Origin: Candidatus Saccharimonadota bacterium
GTDB lineage: Bacteria > Patescibacteriota > Saccharimonadia > Saccharimonadales > JAXHNE01
Length of the DNA: 64,000 nt
NCBI GenBank assembly: GCA_034520885.1
Contig: JAXHNE010000009.1
Coordinates: forward strand, 66,431-130,430
Direction of reading: 5' to 3'
In this document: piece after piece, positions 20,832 through 27,684 of the stretch
Layout of the letters: each line of letters starts with the position of its first letter
How positions within the stretch are numbered: the first letter of the stretch is position 1
Program-made: the position numbers and the translations under genes
Notes under the pieces: model-generated
Database searches by the model: none
Told to the model about the DNA's origin: nothing
What the model saw: the letters and a program-made list of their open reading frames with translations, nothing else

Positions 20832-21290
20832 ATGTTTGATAACTGTGAAGTATGCAAAGTTTTACCGCAGAACAATCCTATTTTTGAAACCGATAAATGG
20901 GTGGCGACTCTTGCGTTTGACCAAGGATATCTCGGTAGGGCATATATAACGCTCAAAGAGCACAAAGGCGACCTGAAGGATTTGAGCGAAGAAGAGTGGC
21001 TAGAATTCTCTAAAGTGCTTAAAAAGTACGAAGCTGGCGTCCGCAAGGCCTTTAATGCTGAGATGTTCAATTGGACCTGCTTAATGAATAATGCCTATCA
21101 AACACAGCCTTCTCAGCCCCATATACACTGGCATGTGAGACCTCGATATTCAACAGAGATAGAATTTAAAGGTAAAACATATAGCGACCCGGAATTTGCT
21201 CATCACTATGATCGAAACCAGAAGAATTTAGTTAATAGTGGAGTATTGGACGCTATTAACGAAGAAATAAAGAGCTGTTTGTCTGATTAG
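20832..21290 (+). CDS. HIT (histidine triad) family protein
   Basis: HIHWHVRPRY histidine triad; TGgCATAAT box ends 6 nt before ATG. Confidence 0.8.
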   Translation: MFDNCEVCKVLPQNNPIFETDKWVATLAFDQGYLGRAYITLKEHKGDLKDLSEEEWLEFSKVLKKYEAGVRKAFNAEMFNWTCLMNNAYQTQPSQPHIHWHVRPRYSTEIEFKGKTYSDPEFAHHYDRNQKNLVNSGVLDAINEEIKSCLSD

Positions 21291-21389
21291 TCGCGGTTCT
21301 ATGTACAAATCTGTAGATTTGACAGAATTCGCCCCACCGACCTACGCCCAGCAAAGCTGTGCGGGTCGGCGGTTCGAGGACTCACCAGC

Positions 21390-21429
21390 AAGATAAAAGA
21401 CCCAATCTTTCGACTGGGTCTTTTATCTT
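21390..21429. terminator. 15-bp perfect hairpin with flanking A/T runs (bidirectional terminator-like)
   Basis: aagataaaagaccca-N10-tgggtcttttatctt. Confidence 0.7.
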
Positions 21430-21537
21430 GGTAGAGCAGACAGGTCTGGAACCCCTAACAGGGGTTAATGAGACAAATGAGACACCTAAAAATGGAGTCT
21501 CAAAAACTACTGATTAACTGTCCTCAGGTTGGTATTA

Positions 21538-21546
21538 TGGTATAAT
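21538..21546 (+). promoter_or_regulatory. extended -10 promoter TGgTATAAT of the RT leader
   Basis: consensus box; 6 nt downstream begins repeat R1 (21553). Confidence 0.6.
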
Positions 21547-21552
21547 ATAATA

Positions 21553-21712
21553 GTCATCAATGGCATCGGCTCTTGCTTAATGCACCAGCCGGTAAGCAGT
21601 TTCATTACTGCGCCAATTGAGGTGGCGCTGACCTACGCTAAGATGCTGGTAGCGAACATAAAGGCATTAACCTTACTGTTTGTACTAACCTTTAACCTTA
21701 GTTGTAGTCCAC
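21553..21712 (+). repeat. RT-leader direct repeat R1 (160 nt)
   Basis: 155/160 identical to R2; mismatches at 21624, 21628, 21632, 21633, 21670. Confidence 0.95.
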
Positions 21713-21936
21713 TCCCGCTTGGAGGCACCGTTAACGGTACAACTCAAATCTCTTGGGTTAACGGATTACAAATGTTTAAAAGCGATGGAAAAGAACAGGG
21801 CGAAACTTCATTTATGATGATAATTTCACAACAATCTCAATGCTCCTGCAGTGGTTGCGCACTGGTACTCTTGCGAAAGCGAGTAAACCTAGAAAATACC
21901 AACCTAAATATGCAGATTGACATAAGTGGAAACTAT

Positions 21937-22096
21937 GTCATCAATGGCATCGGCTCTTGCTTAATGCACCAGCCGGTAAGCAGTTTCATTACTGCGCCAA
22001 TTGAGGTAGCGTTGAGTTACGCTAAGATGCTGGTAGCGAACATAAAGGCATTAGCCTTACTGTTTGTACTAACCTTTAACCTTAGTTGTAGTCCAC
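21937..22096 (+). repeat. RT-leader direct repeat R2 (160 nt)
   Basis: offset exactly 384 nt from R1. Confidence 0.95.
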
Positions 22097-22157
22097 CAAC
22101 GCCTTTGTTAATATAGCGGACCCGAAGTTGATTCGCCGAGAGACTATTTGGCATCAT

Positions 22158-23408
22158 ATGAAATTAATTGAAAAAATTTCGACCCCAGCGCAAATGAAAA
22201 AAGCCTGGAGAAAGTTATCGAAAAACCCTACTTCAAGAGGTCTAGACAGACTGACGATAGCTGAATTCGGTGGAAATTTTGATGAACATTCAAGAAGAAT
22301 AAGAAAACAGTTAAGGTCTGGTACTTATAAATTCGAGCCCTTGAAAGGTGTTGTTATTCCAAGGGCTGGTAACAAAACTCGTTTAATAAAAATATCTACA
22401 GTGAGTGATCGGCTGGTTCAGAAATCGATTCAACTTACAATTCAGTCGAAACTCCAAAAGAAGTATGAACTAAAAAACCCTGCAAGTTATGCATATCTTG
22501 AAAAGCGTGGAATTTCTGATGCAGTTGAAAAGATAAGAGAGTTTTACTCGGCTAATCAGCGTTTTGTACTTGAGGCAGACATTAAAAGCTTTTTTGATGA
22601 AGTTAATAGAGATAAACTTCTTGAAGAGATGATCTTCCCGACCTTGCCCGATGATTCCATAAATGACTTAATTAAAGATGCTATTTCTTCAGAGCTTGGA
22701 AACAAGAAAGATCTTATTGAAGCCAATAAATGGGAAAGGTATTTCCCGGATGAATTGAGCGGCATACCTCAGGGCAGTATACTTTCACCTCTTTTTTCAA
22801 ACGTATATCTAAGTTCACTTGATAAAGCGATGTTAGATAATGAGTTTAATTTAGTAAGGTATGCGGATGACTTTATTGTTCTGTGTGAATCGAAGGACAT
22901 TGCAATCGACGCCTACAAATTGGCCGTAGACACACTAAGTAAACTTGAGCTTGAAATGCACGATCTTTATGTATCGATACGGCGGAAGGCTAAGCCGGAT
23001 AAGTATAGTGAGGTCACTCACTTTACAAAAGGTTTTAATTTCATTGGGCTAAGATTTATCGGAAGCAAAATTTATCCATCCCCCAAAGCCATCAACAGAA
23101 TGAATGATGTAATGGAATCCTTTCCTGGGGAAGCTACGTTTCTTGATGACCTTCATGCAATTAATAGAAAAGTTAATACTTGGGGCTCAACCTATAGGTT
23201 TACAAACTATAATAAAAAACATATCTATGAACCTCTTAATAGAAAGCTGACTGAAGCATTCAAAAGGACTATAGACAAATATGGACTACAGCTAAAAAAA
23301 CCTAGCGACAAGTTCAGTCTTATGCAAAAAATTGGGATTAAAACTTTCGATGAATCTTACACCTACCATCAGAGCAATTATCTTAACCGGAAGAGCGACG
23401 AGAAATAG
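22158..23408 (+). CDS. reverse transcriptase, group-II-intron-like, no endonuclease domain
   Basis: RT blocks IPRAGNKTRLIKISTVSDRLVQ / ADIKSFFDEV / GIPQGSILSPLFSNVYL / RYADDFIVL / FNFIGLRF / NTWGSTYRF; alternative TTG start 22128. Confidence 0.9.
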   Translation: MKLIEKISTPAQMKKAWRKLSKNPTSRGLDRLTIAEFGGNFDEHSRRIRKQLRSGTYKFEPLKGVVIPRAGNKTRLIKISTVSDRLVQKSIQLTIQSKLQKKYELKNPASYAYLEKRGISDAVEKIREFYSANQRFVLEADIKSFFDEVNRDKLLEEMIFPTLPDDSINDLIKDAISSELGNKKDLIEANKWERYFPDELSGIPQGSILSPLFSNVYLSSLDKAMLDNEFNLVRYADDFIVLCESKDIAIDAYKLAVDTLSKLELEMHDLYVSIRRKAKPDKYSEVTHFTKGFNFIGLRFIGSKIYPSPKAINRMNDVMESFPGEATFLDDLHAINRKVNTWGSTYRFTNYNKKHIYEPLNRKLTEAFKRTIDKYGLQLKKPSDKFSLMQKIGIKTFDESYTYHQSNYLNRKSDEK

Positions 23409-23537
23409 CTTTTAGAGTTTTCTTTTAAGTACTAGTTTTTTTATTTCCTCCTCACTTTCGTGAGCGCGCTTGCCGATGTACCCCCCGCCTTCCTCTTTAG
23501 TTCTTCTGTTTATGTACTTAGTGCTCACACAAAATCA

Positions 23538-23780
23538 TCAATCATCTAAGCTATTATCGTGGTATAATTCTTCCTGCCTATCCGACAATTCATTGTCCTT
23601 TCCCTGCTGATAAATGTAGTACCACCATACAGAAATAAAACTCGCTGCAAATAATGTCCAGCCCCCATCTGTTTGACGAAGATAATAAACAAAAAACCCC
23701 AAGAGTATAATCGTTGCTAGAAGACACGACAAAGAGTTTATTCCATGCAGTCTGTCTCTGGTTTTTTTATGACTCTTCAC
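23538..23780 (-). CDS. 2-TM small membrane protein, hypothetical
   Basis: GTG start 5 nt after ggaggt SD; two hydrophobic helices; convergent with RT. Confidence 0.55.
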   Translation of the reverse strand: MKSHKKTRDRLHGINSLSCLLATIILLGFFVYYLRQTDGGWTLFAASFISVWWYYIYQQGKDNELSDRQEELYHDNSLDD

Positions 23781-24063
23781 CTGTACCTCCTAAATAAGAT
23801 AGTGTGTAGTCTTACAGCTACGCTTTTCTATACTCACTGTAAGTATACTATCATCTGTTACATAAAGTGTAGCTGGATTAAGAGATTGTATTTAGATGTG
23901 TTAATTTATGGCAGTTTGCGGGGGAAGACTTCCGCCGCCGTTTCACACCTTACAGTAATCTGATTGCAGACTACTGAAAAGTGGAAACTTTGGCGGACCT
24001 TGCTTCTCGTCCTCCCTCCGTAAAAAGAACAAAAGCCCAGGATTGAACCTGAGCTTTTCTTCT

Positions 24064-24138
24064 TGGTAGCGGGGGGAGGACTCGAACCTCCGACCTTGTG
24101 GTTATGAGCCACACGAGCTGCCGCTGCTCTACCCCGCG
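24064..24138 (-). tRNA. tRNA-Met (CAT), initiator-like
   Basis: cloverleaf read by hand; anticodon loop CTCATAA; C1xU72 mismatch and A11:U24 resemble bacterial initiator tRNA; encoded CCA. Confidence 0.85.
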
Positions 24139-24238
24139 TTATCGGCTTGTAGATAATTCTACAAAAGCAGTCTATAACGTAACAGATGAGGCGCCGGTGG
24201 TCAAGTGACAATTAAGGTATAATAAAGTCGGAGGGCGA

Positions 24239-25420: not shown

Positions 25421-27415
25421 TTATTCGCCTTCAGTGGAGCCGAACGGTTTATGGGTGGCATCAATGGCAATACGGGCAATGCCACGCATTTTTAGTAATT
25501 CGGGGACAAGTTCTTGCCAGGAAGCATTAATTTCCGAGCGGTCACTTGGTAACACGGCGGCTCCTTGCAAGAATGCTGCCTTTGGTGAGGTAGTAAACGG
25601 TCTTACGAACGCACTTCGAGCTCCGGGACTGTCGAGCGCCGTAGGCAATAGGCCGATAGGGATTTGCGCGGTGACGTCCAGGGTTAGTGCTCCATGACGT
25701 TTAAAAATTTGATTGGCCTTATCATCTATCCGTTGTAGTTGCGAGACGGTTTCCGGGGTGACGCTGGTTTTCGTCATATTTTGCGGCGTCACTACTCCCT
25801 CGACCCGCACACCGGTCACGAACAGTACACGGTTAAATACGTCGCGGAAGTTCTTGCCCACTATTTGTGTGATATTTTCTATTTGCTCCCAGGCTTCATC
25901 ATTTGGCTCCTCATGGCTAGTGAGTAAAACCGGGTGCGCGTAAGATCGGCCATCGCCTTGTTGCCCGACGGTTCGGAAATCTGCCGTTGCTACGGCGAAA
26001 TCATCACTATCAATCAGTTCTTGAAGTCTCTCAAGTTGCATCTCGGCGTCCGGTGGCAAAACGGGTGTGCCGTCGTAACCGATTATTCGTGTGACGAGCC
26101 CCGGTCCCGGAAAAGGTTGGCGTTGATGTTCGGCTTCGGAAAATCCTCTTTTTTCGCCGATTTGGCGCATATCGGTTTTGAAAAGTTTGCGCGCCGGATT
26201 AAGAATTTTACCTTCGCGTTCCAGCTTAACGAAAAACGGACCCAGGTTGTGGTGCGTCTTGACGCGACCTTTACCGATACTTTCAATAACATCAGGATAA
26301 AGTGTGCCTTGAGCGATTAAGGTATTTTCGGGATCAAGCCCAAGTTTTTCGATGTGCGCTGAAAAGGCGTTTCCGTAAAGTTGCGAAAAAACTTTTCGTT
26401 TCATCTCGGCGTCCACTTGCTCCGCGAGCGTGTAGGTTCCGAGTGATTGGCCGTCTTCGTCGAAAAGTTCAACCGGTTCGTAGCATACTTTCTCCAGGGG
26501 TATTTTAATGTAATCGGGCTTCAGCCCGGTGCGCTCGGTAAATCGTTGAAGCAAAATGTCAGATTCTGTAATACCGTTCTCGGTACGGTTAATCCCCATA
26601 TCTATATGAATAATGTGAAGATTTTCCGCTGGTACGTCACTGGCTACGAGGACTTCGGCAATGGCGTTGGAGTCTATGCCGCCACTAAAGCCAAGGAGTA
26701 CATCTTTGCCGCGCGCCTGTTCATTAACTTCGGCTACCATTTTTTCAAATTGGTCAATTGCTTCGGGTCGTAGGTCGAGCTCATACACGTCGCCAAGTAG
26801 CTTCCTGACCAGTCCATATCCAACTACATCGCTTAGCTCAGGATGGAACTGTATGCCAATATTTTCCTGCGGGTCGCGGAACATTGCGACGTGTTGGTTA
26901 TCGCCATCGCCGGTAGTGGCTAGTATTTCAAAACCTTCCGGCAACCCATGGGGGCTAATGAAGTCACCGTTACTATGAATCATTTTAGCGCCCGAGAATT
27001 CTTCCAACCCGAGTTTTTCGCCTGCCTCTGTTACCGTGATCTCAACCGGCCCGTATCGTCCCTCGCCCGAAGTGTCCTTGGCGTTTACGATCGTTCCACC
27101 TTGTTGATAAACCATGTCTTGCGCCGCATAGCAAATACCGATCATTCTCGCGGGGTAATCAGAATCGAAAATTTTTGCGTCAAGATGCGGCGAACCTTCC
27201 TCGTAAACGCTATCAGAACCGCCAGTCGCAAACACAAAATCGTGTTCAGCTAAAACTGCCGCGGGCGTGTCATGTGCAAGCAGCGGAGCTTCAGCACCGA
27301 GTTCTTCGTTCATGCTAGCGATGGCTTGCTCGCTTTGAGAGCCAAATTGCAGTACCGGAGTGCATGGCCGCGCGAGTTGCGGTTCGCGTTCTCCCTGATC
27401 CCCGATTGTTTCCAT
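25421..27415 (-). CDS. guaA: GMP synthase (glutamine-hydrolysing), long form
   Basis: GATase GICYAAQ / QFHPE, PP-loop FSGGIDS, C-terminal GMP synthase domain. Confidence 0.85.
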   Translation of the reverse strand: METIGDQGEREPQLARPCTPVLQFGSQSEQAIASMNEELGAEAPLLAHDTPAAVLAEHDFVFATGGSDSVYEEGSPHLDAKIFDSDYPARMIGICYAAQDMVYQQGGTIVNAKDTSGEGRYGPVEITVTEAGEKLGLEEFSGAKMIHSNGDFISPHGLPEGFEILATTGDGDNQHVAMFRDPQENIGIQFHPELSDVVGYGLVRKLLGDVYELDLRPEAIDQFEKMVAEVNEQARGKDVLLGFSGGIDSNAIAEVLVASDVPAENLHIIHIDMGINRTENGITESDILLQRFTERTGLKPDYIKIPLEKVCYEPVELFDEDGQSLGTYTLAEQVDAEMKRKVFSQLYGNAFSAHIEKLGLDPENTLIAQGTLYPDVIESIGKGRVKTHHNLGPFFVKLEREGKILNPARKLFKTDMRQIGEKRGFSEAEHQRQPFPGPGLVTRIIGYDGTPVLPPDAEMQLERLQELIDSDDFAVATADFRTVGQQGDGRSYAHPVLLTSHEEPNDEAWEQIENITQIVGKNFRDVFNRVLFVTGVRVEGVVTPQNMTKTSVTPETVSQLQRIDDKANQIFKRHGALTLDVTAQIPIGLLPTALDSPGARSAFVRPFTTSPKAAFLQGAAVLPSDRSEINASWQELVPELLKMRGIARIAIDATHKPFGSTEGE

Positions 27416-27607: not shown

Positions 27608-27684
27608 TGGTAGCGGTGACTGGATTTGAACCAGTGACCCCAGGCTTATGAGTCCTGTGCTCTAACCAACTGAGCTACACCGCC
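27608..27684 (-). tRNA. tRNA-Met (CAT), elongator-like
   Basis: GGCGGTGTAGCTCAGTTGGTTAGAGCAC...CTCATAA...GGTTCAAATCC...CACCGCTACCA; could alternatively be Ile2 (tilS is present). Confidence 0.85.

What the first reader, a model, noticed from the sequence alone, without database searches (positions are those of the whole stretch)
21538..23408. Free-standing group-II-intron-like reverse transcriptase behind a leader built from two 160-nt direct repeats (candidate undescribed RT + ncRNA system)
**The RT.** CDS 22158-23408 carries the RT blocks in canonical order: IPRAGNKTRLIKISTVSDRLVQ, ADIKSFFDEV, GIPQGSILSPLFSNVYL, RYADDFIVL, FNFIGLRF, and a thumb/X-like NTWGSTYRF. It has no endonuclease domain. 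There is no Cas gene, retron-type effector or DGR target gene beside it.

**The leader.** A consensus extended -10 (TGgTATAAT, 21538-21546) sits 6 nt before 21553. That position is exactly the first base of repeat R1 (21553-21712). R2 (21937-22096) is 155/160 identical, offset exactly 384 nt, and ends 30-60 nt before the RT start. The 5' 71 nt and 3' 42 nt of the two repeats are identical, and all 5 mismatches cluster at 21624-21670. Local hairpins occur in the repeat (gcagt-ttcatt-actgc, 21596-21611) and in the spacer (accgttaacggt, 21727-21738; cttgc-GAAA-gcgag, 21870-21883).

**Interpretation.** A promoter, then a structured RNA, then an RT with nothing else is the logic of ncRNA-templated defence RTs (retrons, DRT2-type UG RTs). 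I cannot place the long R-spacer-R layout in any class I know. The locus is the tRNA-proximal module of an AT-rich island.
Basis: partly seen in the sequence, partly recalled or inferred. Interest (0 to 1): 0.9.

Follow-up and report, generated by a model that had tools for sequence, protein, structure and literature searches.

The report
Reverse transcriptase with a permuted hidden gene
A lone reverse transcriptase in a Saccharibacteria genome sits behind a structured leader RNA whose two 160-base repeats frame a 384-base unit that reads as an endless protein-coding frame once joined head to tail, so the enzyme probably assembles a gene the chromosome holds only in scrambled form, a trick known so far from one unrelated enzyme family.

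Summary

The R1+spacer unit is stop-free in one sense frame only (0.2% of shuffles).

The repeat-spacer-repeat leader recurs directly upstream of the RT in 13 further loci. These are Patescibacteria and Bacteroidota, with RTs 32-40% identical and leader sequences that do not align between the two phyla. It occurs in none of about 210 other RT loci.

In every locus the circularised unit carries a sense ORF of 0.85 unit or more:
- It is endless in 5 loci, and in 2 more after one slip in an A-run.
- In L008, ATG to TAA fills 321 of 322 nt.

Some spacers hold an in-frame SD-ATG or a Bacteroidota promoter followed by ATG. In two loci R2 carries a private stop.

A stem just 3' of R1 covaries. R1 and R2 evolve in concert.

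The RT is group-II-intron-like (closest to G2L4 and GsI-IIC), not DRT2. No intron RNA is present.

Best reading (about 0.5): cDNA runs to the RNA 5' end, transfers from R1 to R2, and builds multimers or circles that encode a small hydrophobic protein. No cDNA, protein or phenotype has been shown. I found no published description.

The parts
21389..21430 (.). Terminator-like hairpin after the upstream HIT-family gene; marks the left border of the module
   Evidence: 19-nt arms, 95% complementary (I1). The HIT domain gene is at 20832-21290.
21538..21546 (+). Leader promoter P1, extended -10 TGGTATAAT; the predicted transcription start falls at about the first base of R1
   Evidence: Sequence. 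The motif is enriched in the window, 6 found against 1.8 expected. A -10 or -7 box ends 6-14 nt before R1 in most of the 13 loci compared, the clearest being 6-7 nt in the window, L166 and L226. The scan that requires two hexamers does not list it, because there is no -35.
21553..21712 (+). R1, the 5' copy of the terminal repeat; proposed donor end for cDNA strand transfer. It encodes the hydrophobic segment of the ORF
   Evidence: The hydrophobic 19-mer MLVANIKALTLLFVLTFNL has a Kyte-Doolittle mean of 1.82.
21713..21936 (+). Spacer (S); together with R1 it makes the 384-nt (128-codon) unit
   Evidence: The unit is stop-free in one + frame only; the other five frames have 4-14 stops. Only 0.2% of 5000 shuffles have any open frame; 0 of 1000 dinucleotide shuffles do.
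21728..21764 (+). Conserved stem P1 just 3' of R1: CCGTTAAC (21728-21735) pairs with GTTAACGG (21757-21764). Candidate RT-binding or initiation element
   Evidence: The same stem sits at the same place in 13 loci. 95% of cells are paired, 4 of 7 pairs show compensatory changes, 0 of 500 shuffles reach the covariation score, and slid controls pair at 32-48%.
21772..21774 (+). Best candidate start codon of the permuted ORF in the window (in frame, 7 nt after the stem); weak
   Evidence: It is in frame with 21553 (219 nt = 73 codons). It is positionally equivalent to the in-frame SD-ATG of L166 and L226. It has no good SD of its own.
21870..21883 (+). CTTGC-GAAA-GCGAG hairpin in the spacer
   Evidence: Sequence. 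Conservation was not tested.
21937..22096 (+). R2, the 3' copy of the terminal repeat; proposed acceptor for cDNA strand transfer
   Evidence: The Logan contig L004 (RT 98% identical) starts exactly 30 nt inside the R2 end, as a k=31 assembly graph breaks at a repeat.
21514..22116 (+). Continuous stop-free sense frame through R1-S-R2, ending at TAG 22114-22116; this is the genomic footprint of the circularly permuted 'endless' ORF
22097..22157 (+). Linker between R2 and the RT, with hairpin CGAA-GTTGA-TTCG (22123-22135) and GCCGAGAG (22135-22142); both are conserved in the 54%-identical homologue L001
   Evidence: L001 has CGAGG-TATAAT-CTTCG at the same place.
22158..23408 (+). Group-II-intron-like (G2L-type) reverse transcriptase, 416 aa, YADD, with an RT0-type N-terminus, thumb and C-terminal helical domain. 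No endonuclease domain and no GIIM hit
   Evidence: The AlphaFold2 model has pLDDT 89.5. The best Foldseek hits are G2L4 RT 9d4s and GsI-IIC RT 7k9y, both at TM 0.71.

Best explanation
The locus is a two-component retroelement: a roughly 600-nt structured leader RNA and a G2L-type RT, probably on one transcript.

Transcription from the extended -10 starts at about the first base of R1. The RNA is therefore terminally redundant: 5'-R1-spacer-R2-linker-RT.

I propose these steps:
1. The RT copies the leader towards its 5' end.
2. It runs off at R1.
3. The 160-nt homology lets the nascent cDNA end re-anneal on R2. This resembles the first strand transfer of retroviruses and pararetroviruses.
4. 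Repetition, or circularisation, gives head-to-tail multimers or circles of the 384-nt unit.

Only in that product are spacer tail, R and spacer head contiguous. That yields a sense-strand ORF with no stop codon, made of 128-codon repeats and carrying a hydrophobic helix in each unit. In Bacteroidota relatives the equivalent ORF is finite but fills almost the whole circle, and it has its own promoter and ATG.

After second-strand synthesis, expression of this small membrane-type protein would arrest the cell. This is the DRT2/Neo logic, reached by a different RT lineage and a different jumping device.

Shown: the anatomy, its conservation, the open frame, the covarying stem, concerted evolution of R, and the RT class. 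Inferred: cDNA synthesis, the strand transfer, expression of the ORF, toxicity, and an antiviral role.
For: **Window.** The offset is 384 = 128 codons. One sense frame is stop-free. None of 1000 dinucleotide shuffles reaches this.

**Architecture is conserved while sequence is not.** R-S-R lies directly upstream of the RT in L002, L166 and L226 (Patescibacteria-type) and in L018, L167, L227, L168, L028, L087, L086, L225, L008 and L006 (Bacteroidota). Of 227 fetched RT loci, 15 have a repeat of at least 60 nt at 200-1200 spacing. Thirteen of these are this leader; the other two are a CRISPR array and an intron duplication.

**Circular-unit ORF.**
- It is endless in the window, L002, L166, L226 and L018.
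- It covers 0.85-1.23 unit in the other eight loci. Per-locus shuffle p values are 0.000-0.054, except L006 at 0.158.
- Empedobacter proteins P0122 and P0123 are stop-free across R1-S-R2 with a 390-nt period.

**Gene signals placed as a permuted gene needs.**
- An in-frame AAAGGAGGcaaaATG (L166) and AAGGAGagcgacATG (L226) lie in the spacer.
- A Bacteroidota promoter (-33 TTG at 21-22 nt, then a -7 TAnnTTTG box) is followed by an ATG 5-6 nt later in 7 of the 10 Bacteroidota loci; one of them (L086) lacks the -33 TTG.
- In L008, ATG to TAA fills 321 of 322 nt (TAA-G-ATG).
- The predicted products align from Met1 without gaps.

**Silencing of the chromosomal copy.** In L002 and L166, R2 carries a private indel or stop, so only the R1 version reads through.

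**Other support.**
- R1 starts at the predicted 5' end of the RNA.
- R1 equals R2 100% within Chryseobacterium G0201 and within W4I1, although R differs between the two strains. This shows concerted evolution.
- A stem 3' of R1 covaries. The leader folds with a z-score of -5.1.
- The RT is full length with YADD. It is structurally closest to G2L4 and to the template-switching complex of GsI-IIC RT.
- The ORF family has no Pfam domain. Only 8 relatives exist among 5.8 billion proteins, and all those with a traceable source lie in such leaders.
- Every product has an R-encoded hydrophobic 19-mer with a Kyte-Doolittle mean of 1.6-2.6.
- The DRT2 papers establish the precedent of a permuted stop-less gene assembled by an RT (PMC11100668, PMC12039810).
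Against: - No experimental or read-level evidence of cDNA, multimers or protein was available.
- Signals of protein-level selection are weak. Codon-position mismatches are 0.43/0.36/0.45. Between two Chryseobacterium loci pN/pS is 0.57 in frame against 0.72 and 0.78 out of frame. The leader is much more conserved than the RT at synonymous sites (pS 0.13 against 0.56), so RNA constraints dominate.
- The window's own unit has no convincing SD, start codon or internal sigma-70 promoter.
- Five Bacteroidota loci need a -1 shift or +1 A in an A6-7 run to join the ATG frame to the R frame (and my reading). L006 has an in-frame stop.
- In the window, R2 is also open. A 114-aa version could therefore be made from the chromosome without any RT.
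- In Chryseobacterium G0201 the complete ORF sits in the chromosome as 2.3 units. The product therefore cannot be unconditionally lethal.
- The ORF is in the sense of the leader, unlike Neo, so the analogy is not exact.
- Three RTs in the clade lack the repeat pair (L005, L007, L223).
- The defence context is thin. Only L166 has Abi-type neighbours.
Confidence: 0.5

Rival explanations
1. RNA-templated DNA product with no protein. The RT uses the R-S-R leader to make single-unit or tandem cDNA that itself acts as a sensor, decoy or antitoxin, as in retrons, DRT9 or DRT10. The open frame is a by-product of RNA constraints.
For: The leader is constrained mainly at nucleotide level (pS 0.13 against 0.56 for the RT) and codon periodicity is weak. 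A covarying stem and strong folding are present. The window has no clear start codon. L006 is interrupted.
Against: - One sense frame is open over 0.85 unit or more in 13 of 13 loci, far above shuffles.
- SD-ATG or promoter-ATG signals lie in frame.
- L008 shows an exact TAA-G-ATG wrap.
- All indels are in phase.
- L002 and L166 carry R2-specific stops.
Confidence: 0.2
2. A conventional small upstream gene or uORF. The ORF from the spacer ATG through R2 is simply translated from the chromosome, perhaps coupling to RT translation. R1 is a duplicated 5' UTR piece used for RNA-level regulation. The RT does something unrelated, such as repair, as G2L4 does.
For: In L226 the leader ORF overlaps the RT ATG by 11 nt. 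In the window and most loci the S-to-R2 ORF is intact and ends shortly before the RT. G2L4 is the closest solved relative.
Against: - This reading does not explain why R1 plus spacer head stay open in the same frame without a start codon.
- It does not explain why the period is a multiple of 3 in 9 of 14 loci (11 of 14 after one A-run slip).
- It does not explain why L002 and L166 disable R2 but keep R1 open.
- It does not explain why R1 begins at the transcription start, or why R1 and R2 are kept identical.
Confidence: 0.1
3. DNA-level switch. Recombination or slippage between R1 and R2 excises a circle or amplifies the unit in the chromosome, acting as a phase variation that turns the ORF on. 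A-run length changes add a second switch. The RT is accessory, or only repairs or homogenises the repeats.
For: Chryseobacterium G0201 has 2.3 units against 1.3 in W4I1. A relative of L087 (P0124) has the ATG and R frames already in phase. The repeats are 97-100% identical.
Against: The strict linkage of the leader to one RT clade across phyla and the start of R1 at the RNA 5' end both point to an RNA intermediate. A recombination switch needs neither.
Confidence: 0.08
4. A selfish retroelement whose terminal redundancy serves its own replication or mobility, as an LTR-like or pararetrovirus-like minimal element, with no host function.
For: R at both ends of a transcript is the hallmark of retroviral and pararetroviral pregenomes (established knowledge). 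Chromosomal contexts vary, and some loci sit next to a tRNA or a recombinase.
Against: - The RT gene lies outside the R-flanked unit, so the unit cannot carry its own enzyme.
- There is a single copy per genome in every complete genome seen.
- There are no relatives on phages or plasmids.
Confidence: 0.06
5. A degenerate mobile group II intron, a DGR or a retron that was mis-recognised.
For: The RT scores 200 bits on the group II RT/maturase model. Direct repeats near an RT recall the DGR TR/VR pair.
Against: - Group II intron: the score is below the 300-bit cutoff. There is no intron domain V/VI or any other Rfam family, even at E = 5. There is no endonuclease or GIIM domain.
- DGR: only 1 of the 5 R1/R2 mismatches involves an A in either copy. 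R1 is at an RNA 5' end, not at the 3' end of a target gene.
- Retron: retron models score 54 bits or less. There are no flanking inverted repeats.
Confidence: 0.03

Closest known systems
DRT2 (UG2 RT + ncRNA) making the never-ending ORF neo (Tang et al. 2024, PMC11100668; Wilkinson et al. 2024, PMC12039810)
   Same: - A single RT gene is preceded by a structured RNA expressed from one promoter.
- The template unit reads as a stop-less ORF only after head-to-tail joining.
- The gene is hidden in permuted form.
- There is no separate effector gene.
   Different: - RT lineage: the Drt2 models score 63-66 bits against a 390-bit cutoff, and DRT2 RT ranks 46th in Foldseek at 14% identity.
- Unit size: 285-474 nt here against 120 nt.
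- Jumping device: here it would be 92-233-nt terminal direct repeats, not 3-nt ACA motifs brought together by a stem.
- Polarity: the ORF is in the sense of the leader, whereas neo mRNA is antisense to the ncRNA.
- Several members encode a finite full-circle ORF with its own promoter.
- Host range is Patescibacteria and Bacteroidota.
G2L4 and other group-II-intron-like RTs (Simon and Zimmerly 2008, PMC2602772; PDB 9d4s, 9d5x)
   Same: A free-standing RT of about 410 aa of the group II type, without intron RNA. G2L4 is the best sequence hit (112 bits) and best fold hit (TM 0.71).
   Different: Only 23% identical. It has YADD, whereas G2L4 has YIDD (my own knowledge, not tested here). No repeat-bearing leader or associated RNA is described for G2L3-5. 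G2L4 works in DNA repair.
Terminally redundant pregenomic RNAs of retroviruses, hepadnaviruses and caulimoviruses (R regions)
   Same: A transcript begins exactly at one copy of a direct repeat and contains a second copy downstream. The homology allows the nascent cDNA to transfer after reaching the RNA 5' end (established knowledge).
   Different: The host is bacterial. The RT gene lies outside the repeat-flanked unit. There are no LTRs, integrase or capsid. The unit is 0.3-0.5 kb.
DRT10 / UG17 (ncRNA + SLATT + RT; 7-nt tandem-repeat DNA)
   Same: It is the best-scoring named DRT profile in PADLOC, at 141 bits over the RT core only. It synthesises repetitive DNA from an RNA template.
   Different: No SLATT gene is nearby. 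The match is partial (profile positions 5-288 of 429). DRT10 uses a telomerase-like 7-nt template, whereas this unit is hundreds of nt.
Retrons and DGRs
   Same: An RT next to a dedicated non-coding template, with repeats involved.
   Different: - Retrons use inverted repeats and a branched msDNA.
- DGRs use a TR/VR pair with adenine mutagenesis in a target gene.
- Neither pattern is present here.

Membership tests
DRT2 / Neo system | RT belongs to the UG2/Drt2 family | tested here: not met
   NCBIfam Drt2 scores 63 bits against a 390-bit cutoff. PADLOC Drt2 scores 66 and 50 bits, palm region only. DRT2 RT 9c0i ranks 46th in Foldseek at 14% identity.
DRT2 / Neo system | Structured ncRNA directly upstream of the RT on the same strand | tested here: met
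   The leader at 21553-22157 folds with a z-score of -5.1. A stem covaries across 13 loci.
DRT2 / Neo system | The head-to-tail joined template unit keeps one frame free of stop codons | tested here: met
   This holds for the window unit of 384 nt. It also holds in 4 other loci directly and in 2 more after an A-run slip.
DRT2 / Neo system | About 120-nt template bounded by ACA triplets at a stem; ORF antisense to the ncRNA; promoter formed across the junction | tested here: not met
   The unit is 384 nt, bounded by 160-nt direct repeats. The ORF is in the sense strand. No junction-specific promoter was found in the window.
DRT2 / Neo system | RT-dependent concatemeric cDNA and a toxic protein product | not testable with these tools
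   This needs cDNA sequencing and expression assays.
Mobile group II intron | Ribozyme domains (especially V/VI) flanking the ORF | tested here: not met
   There is no Rfam hit at gathering score over the whole window, or at E up to 5 in 21300-23800.
Mobile group II intron | RT/maturase reaches the family cutoff and has maturase (GIIM) and usually En domains | tested here: not met
   TIGR04416 scores 200.9 bits against a 300-bit cutoff. Pfam finds RVT_1 only.
G2L (group-II-intron-like, intron-less) RTs, broad sense | Group II-type RT fold and motifs (RT0, thumb, C-terminal domain) without intron RNA | tested here: met
   (TM 0.71 to G2L4 and GsI-IIC).
G2L4 specifically | Close sequence relationship and the YIDD active-site variant | tested here: not met
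   23% identity. The window has RYADDF. The YIDD criterion rests on my own knowledge.
DRT10 / UG17 | Tripartite ncRNA + SLATT + RT | tested here: not met
   The neighbours have no SLATT or other effector domain. RT_UG17 matches only partially, at 141 bits.
Retron | Retron-clade RT, msr/msd with flanking inverted repeats | tested here: not met
   Retron models score 54 bits or less against cutoffs of 235 or more. No suitable inverted repeats are present. There is no Rfam retron hit.
DGR | TR/VR pair differing at TR adenines; VR at the 3' end of a target gene | tested here: not met
   Only 1 of 5 mismatches involves an A in either copy. R1 sits at a promoter, not in a gene.
CRISPR-associated RT | Adjacent cas1/cas genes or a CRISPR array | tested here: not met
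   None is present within 17-29 kb of the window. CRISPR-linked RTs form a separate branch.

The most novel reading that the evidence does not exclude
A second, evolutionarily independent RT lineage (group-II-intron-like, in Saccharibacteria/Patescibacteria and Bacteroidota) manufactures a gene that the chromosome stores only in circularly permuted form.

It would do so by a retrovirus-style strand transfer between long terminal repeats of its leader RNA. The resulting multimeric or circular DNA would encode an endless or full-circle sense ORF for a small membrane protein.

Two extra safety catches would exist in some members: stops private to R2, and an A-run frameshift.
Probability: 0.45. 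Interest if true: 0.92.

Novelty: new variant of a known kind. Interest (0 to 1): 0.85.

Why it matters
RNA-templated assembly of a gene that is absent from the linear genome is known from a single family, DRT2/Neo. This locus would show the idea arose at least twice. It uses a different polymerase lineage and a different jumping device: long terminal redundancy, the principle behind retroviral strand transfer.

- That would link bacterial G2L enzymes mechanistically to retrovirus-like replication.
- It would give the long-orphan G2L-type RTs a testable function.
- It would show that hidden permuted genes exist in ultra-small CPR genomes and in culturable Bacteroidota (Chryseobacterium, Imperialibacter, Mucilaginibacter, Empedobacter). 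That makes experiments easy.
- It supplies a simple search rule for more such genes: a repeat pair starting at a transcription start site, with a unit that stays open when circularised.

Tried and rejected
- **Group II intron:** rejected. There are no ribozyme domains at gathering score or at E up to 5. The RT is below the family cutoff and has no GIIM or En domain.
- **DGR:** rejected. The mismatches are not adenine-specific and R1 is at a promoter.
- **Retron, CRISPR RT, DRT10:** rejected on profile scores and neighbours.
- **Self-cleaving ribozymes in R (retrozyme-like circular RNA):** nothing was found in Rfam. A new ribozyme cannot be excluded.
- **Internal sigma-70 promoter in the window spacer:** TTGACA (21917-21922) + 17 nt + ATCAAT is not accepted by the scan, so I dropped it as evidence.
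- **Phage and plasmid collections and IMG/VR:** they hold only RTs at or below about 31% identity, mostly annotated group II intron RTs.
- **Short-read contigs:** L001, L003, L004, L165, L224 and L085 end in or near the repeat and could not be scored for the full unit.
- **Codon-position and pN/pS tests:** they gave only weak support for protein-level selection.
- **Non-templated +1 nt at each jump, as in DRT2:** considered, but it does not fit the loci whose period is already a multiple of 3.
- **Minerva preprint (10.64898/2026.09.22.753630):** it could not be opened. Term counts show 0 mentions of 'group II intron-like', 'template jumping' or 'Chryseobacterium'.


Full report
**1.

R1 (21553-21712) and R2 (21937-22096) are 155/160 identical and 384 nt apart. 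The five mismatches lie at 21624, 21628, 21632, 21633 and 21670. Neither copy extends further on either side.

A perfect extended -10, TGGTATAAT (21538-21546), ends 6 nt before R1. The motif occurs 6 times in the window against 1.8 expected.

Pfam finds RVT_1 only.

The window comes from a Candidatus Saccharibacteria MAG. A neighbouring 664-aa protein is 100% identical to NCBI U5L95_04855. The flanking genes are housekeeping. There is no cas, SLATT, retron effector or DGR target gene. The 'AT-rich island' is only a modest GC dip. tRNA-Met lies 656 nt downstream on the other strand.

**2.

384 nt is 128 codons. The frame that starts at 21553 has no stop codon from 21514 to 22116, so it runs through R1, the spacer and R2.

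Treated as a circle, the R1+spacer unit has 0 stops in that sense frame and 4-14 stops in the other five. Only 0.2% of 5000 shuffles have any open frame. None of 1000 dinucleotide-preserving shuffles does.

**3. The RT**

- The best PADLOC match is a generic group-II-type RT model at 224 bits. RT_UG17 scores 141 bits over the core only, and Drt2 scores 66 bits.
- In NCBIfam, group_II_RT_mat scores 200.9 bits, below its 300-bit cutoff. Drt2 scores 63 bits against a 390-bit cutoff. Retron models score 54 bits or less.
- Among solved structures, the best sequence hit is G2L4 RT at 112 bits, followed by group II intron RTs.
- An AlphaFold2 model (pLDDT 89.5) superposes best on G2L4 RT (9d4s) and on the template-switching complex of GsI-IIC RT (7k9y), both at TM 0.71. 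DRT2 RT ranks 46th.
- Rfam finds no group II domain, ribozyme or retron RNA at gathering score or at E up to 5.

The enzyme is therefore a free-standing group-II-intron-like (G2L-type) RT and not a mobile intron.

**4. The family**

The RT is rare. One relative is 98% identical, two are 53-54% identical, and the rest are 40% or less. No close relatives occur on plasmids, phages or IMG/VR contigs.

Wherever the upstream DNA of a relative at or above about 32% identity is fully assembled, the same layout appears: promoter, R1, spacer, R2, a 39-112-nt linker, then the RT.

| Locus | Source | Repeat period (nt) |
|---|---|---|
| L002 | CPR bacterium CG10_37_50 | 339/340 |
| L166 | Saccharimonadales MAG | 333/331 |
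| L226 | metagenome | 285 |
| L018 | Bacteroidota MAG | 474 |
| L167 | Chryseobacterium sp. G0201 | 390 (2.3 units) |
| L227 | Chryseobacterium sp. W4I1 | 390 |
| L168 | Imperialibacter roseus | 369 |
| L028 | Bacteroidota MAG | 363 |
| L087 | metagenome | 363 |
| L086 | metagenome | 389 |
| L225 | metagenome | 380 |
| L008 | Sphingobacteriales MAG | 322 |
| L006 | Mucilaginibacter galii | 335 |

- The leader sequences of the Patescibacteria-type and Bacteroidota groups do not align, apart from one stem.
- Among all 227 RT loci fetched, 15 have a direct repeat of at least 60 nt at 200-1200 spacing. Thirteen of these are this leader. The other two are a CRISPR array (L150) and a long duplication (L076).
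- In a rough neighbour-joining tree, the leader-bearing RTs form one clade, apart from intron RTs and CRISPR RTs.
- Three clade members lack the pair. L007 keeps a single R plus linker and looks decayed. L223 and L005 show nothing.
- Short-read contigs break in or near the repeat. L004 (98% identical RT, k = 31) starts exactly 30 nt inside R2.

**5. The permuted ORF is a family trait**

On the circularised unit, the longest sense stop-free path is:
- endless in the window, L002, L166, L226 and L018;
- 0.85-1.23 unit in the other eight loci.

Per-locus p values from 1000 dinucleotide shuffles are 0.000-0.054, except L006 at 0.158. Two Empedobacter-type 'hypothetical proteins' (P0122, P0123) are stop-free across R1-S-R2 with a 390-nt period.

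Gene signals sit where a permuted gene needs them:
- L166 has AAAGGAGGcaaaATG and L226 has AAGGAGagcgacATG, both in the open frame inside the spacer.
- Seven of the ten Bacteroidota loci have a Bacteroidota-type promoter in the spacer: a -7 box TAnnTTTG, with a -33 TTG 21-22 nt upstream in six of them (L086 lacks it), followed 5-6 nt later by an ATG.
- In L008, ATG to TAA takes 321 of the 322 nt (TAA-G-ATG) and gives a 106-aa ORF that wraps the circle.
- In the two Chryseobacterium loci the ORF is 122 codons plus TAA within a 130-codon unit.
- In L225, L086, L168, L028 and L087 the ATG opens a 17-codon frame ending in an A6-7 run. One extra A, or a -1 ribosomal shift, joins it to the frame that runs through R. 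With that shift, L225 (380 to 381 nt) and L086 (389 to 390 nt) become endless (and my reading).
- With these joins, all seven predicted products align from Met1 without gaps.
- A soil protein-level assembly (P0124) is a relative of L087 in which the two frames are already in phase.
- In L002 and L166, R2 carries a private indel that creates a stop 11-18 codons into the repeat, while R1 reads through. The chromosome can therefore give only a truncated peptide there.
- Every product has an R-encoded hydrophobic 19-mer with a Kyte-Doolittle mean of 1.6-2.6.
- The ORF family has no Pfam domain and only 8 relatives among 5.8 billion proteins. All are unannotated or 'hypothetical', and those I could place lie in such leaders.

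**6. It is also a structured RNA**

- The 605-nt window leader folds with a z-score of -5.1.
- A stem immediately 3' of R1 (window 21728-21735 with 21757-21764) is present in 13 loci. 95% of cells are paired, 4 of 7 pairs show compensatory changes, and 0 of 500 shuffles reach the covariation score. Slid controls pair at 32-48% for five of the six offsets (the +3 slide, counted on only 4 pairs, reaches 89%), all with lower covariation scores.
- The linker hairpin and the GCCGAGAG motif are shared with the 54%-identical L001. Bacteroidota linkers share a GACA-N-TGTC hairpin.
- Between the two Chryseobacterium loci the leader is 92% identical (pS 0.13), while the RT has pS 0.56. pN/pS is 0.57 in frame against 0.72 and 0.78 out of frame. 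Codon-position mismatches are 0.43/0.36/0.45.
- RNA constraints therefore dominate. The case for coding rests on frame openness, phase-preserving indels, and the placement of starts and stops, not on amino-acid conservation.

**7. Clues to mechanism**

- R1 begins at or a few nt after the predicted transcription start in most of the 13 loci compared. The -10 box ends 6-7 nt before R1 in the window, L166 and L226. A -7-like box ends 6-17 nt before R1 in most Bacteroidota loci, including AGTTCTTTG 9-12 nt before it in four of them.
- R1 and R2 are 97-100% identical within a genome, although R differs between sister genomes. This is concerted evolution, or selection for identity.
- The RT fold is that of enzymes known for end-to-end template switching (the biochemistry is established knowledge on GsI-IIC and G2L4).
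- A transcript that starts at one copy of a repeat and carries a second copy downstream is the design of retroviral and pararetroviral pregenomes. There, cDNA that reaches the 5' end transfers to the downstream copy (established knowledge).
- Applied here, repeated transfer or circularisation gives (R1-S)n. Only in that product are spacer tail, R and spacer head contiguous.
- The 2.3-unit array in Chryseobacterium G0201, with one SNP between units, shows that unit-wise expansion happens.
- The priming site, second-strand synthesis, expression and phenotype are all inferred.

**8. Comparison with known systems**

The closest in function is DRT2/Neo. Both have one RT, an upstream structured RNA, and a permuted stop-less ORF assembled by programmed template jumping. 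Membership fails on several defining features:
- the RT family;
- the 120-nt unit bounded by ACA motifs;
- the antisense polarity of neo;
- the junction-formed promoter.

G2L4 is the closest protein, but it is only 23% identical and is not known to use an RNA of this kind. DRT10/UG17, retrons, DGRs, CRISPR RTs and mobile introns fail tested defining features (see the membership table).

Ten full-text searches found no description of a G2L-type RT with a repeat-spacer-repeat leader or a sense permuted ORF. One 2026 preprint could not be opened. Its term counts give no hint of this system.

**9. Weak points**

- No cDNA, protein or phenotype data exist.
- The window's own unit lacks a convincing SD, start codon or internal promoter.
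- In the window, R2 is open, so a 114-aa form could be made without the RT.
- G0201 tolerates a chromosomal full-length ORF.
- Five loci need a frameshift, and L006 is interrupted.
- The defence context is thin. Only L166 has AbiJ or HEPN_AbiV neighbours.

**10. Verdict**

The finding is real and is more interesting than first described. It is a conserved, undescribed RT + leader family in Patescibacteria and Bacteroidota, and its leader is a circularly permuted ORF.

- Conserved functional RT-RNA module: about 0.9.
- RT-driven assembly of the permuted gene by R-mediated strand transfer: about 0.5.
- Antiviral role: about 0.4.

I rate it a new variant of a known kind: gene assembly by an RT, with DRT2/Neo as the only precedent. 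It uses an independent enzyme lineage and a different jumping device.

Noticed in passing
window 25421-27415 (- strand): The 664-aa GATase/GuaA-like protein is 100% identical to 'MAG: hypothetical protein U5L95_04855 [Candidatus Saccharibacteria bacterium]' on a 203-kb contig. The window is therefore from a Saccharibacteria (CPR) genome. The RT itself has no 100% match in the protein collection; the best is 98%, from a Logan assembly.
   Followed up: partly
window 21533-21546, 23555-23568, 24210-24223: Three copies of a 14-mer ending in GGTATAAT (TATTATGGTATAAT and two variants at 86% identity). TGNTATAAT occurs 6 times in the window against 1.8 expected. This is probably the local extended -10 promoter consensus. 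One copy lies just downstream of the RT.
   Followed up: partly
window 21698-21711 / 22082-22095 versus 23282-23295: The 3' end of each R copy (TTAGTTGTAGTCCA) is 93% complementary to a 14-mer inside the 3' part of the RT coding region. By my rough estimate this is about what chance gives in 4 kb, but it could be a long-range pairing or a priming site.
   Followed up: no
L167 1543-2436 (Chryseobacterium sp. G0201, CP033917): The leader holds 2.3 tandem 390-nt units with one SNP between units. The complete 122-aa permuted ORF therefore exists in the chromosome and is annotated (EG348_18045). Sister strain W4I1 (L227) has the usual 1.3 units.
   Followed up: partly
P0124 (SRC, ERR1035437 soil protein-level assembly): A 110-aa protein equals the predicted frame-joined, permuted product of an L087-like locus, with 3 residue differences. 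It reflects either an A7 variant joined through the repeat by the protein assembler, or reads from concatemeric DNA.
   Followed up: partly
L225 ~2258, L086 ~2246, L168 ~2260, L028 ~2746, L087 ~2252 (A6-7 run, 17 codons after the spacer ATG): A conserved A6-7 run sits where a -1 shift or one extra A merges the ATG frame with the frame through R. Loci without the run (L167, L227, L008) have the ATG already in frame. This may be programmed slippage or a phase-variable tract.
   Followed up: partly
L226 2501-2511: The leader ORF overlaps the RT start codon by 11 nt (…CGATATGAGTGGTAG), which suggests translational coupling between the genomic leader ORF and the RT.
   Followed up: no
L166 4394-6185; L223 2200-5088: The Saccharimonadales locus L166 lies next to AbiJ_NTD3 and HEPN_AbiV genes, a defence neighbourhood. 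L223, a clade member without the repeat pair, sits between a tRNA gene and a serine recombinase.
   Followed up: no
L007 2770-2968 (Pedobacter sp. Hv1): Only one R-like copy plus the conserved linker remains upstream of the RT, so the leader looks decayed. A GC-rich, repeat-like structured stretch lies further upstream (2440-2700).
   Followed up: no
window 24064-24138 and 27608-27684 (- strand): Two tRNA-Met (CAT) genes lie 3.5 kb apart. The first is 656 nt downstream of the RT stop, with an unannotated 80-aa ORF (23538-23780, - strand) in between. That ORF is also present next to the 98%-identical RT in L004.
   Followed up: no
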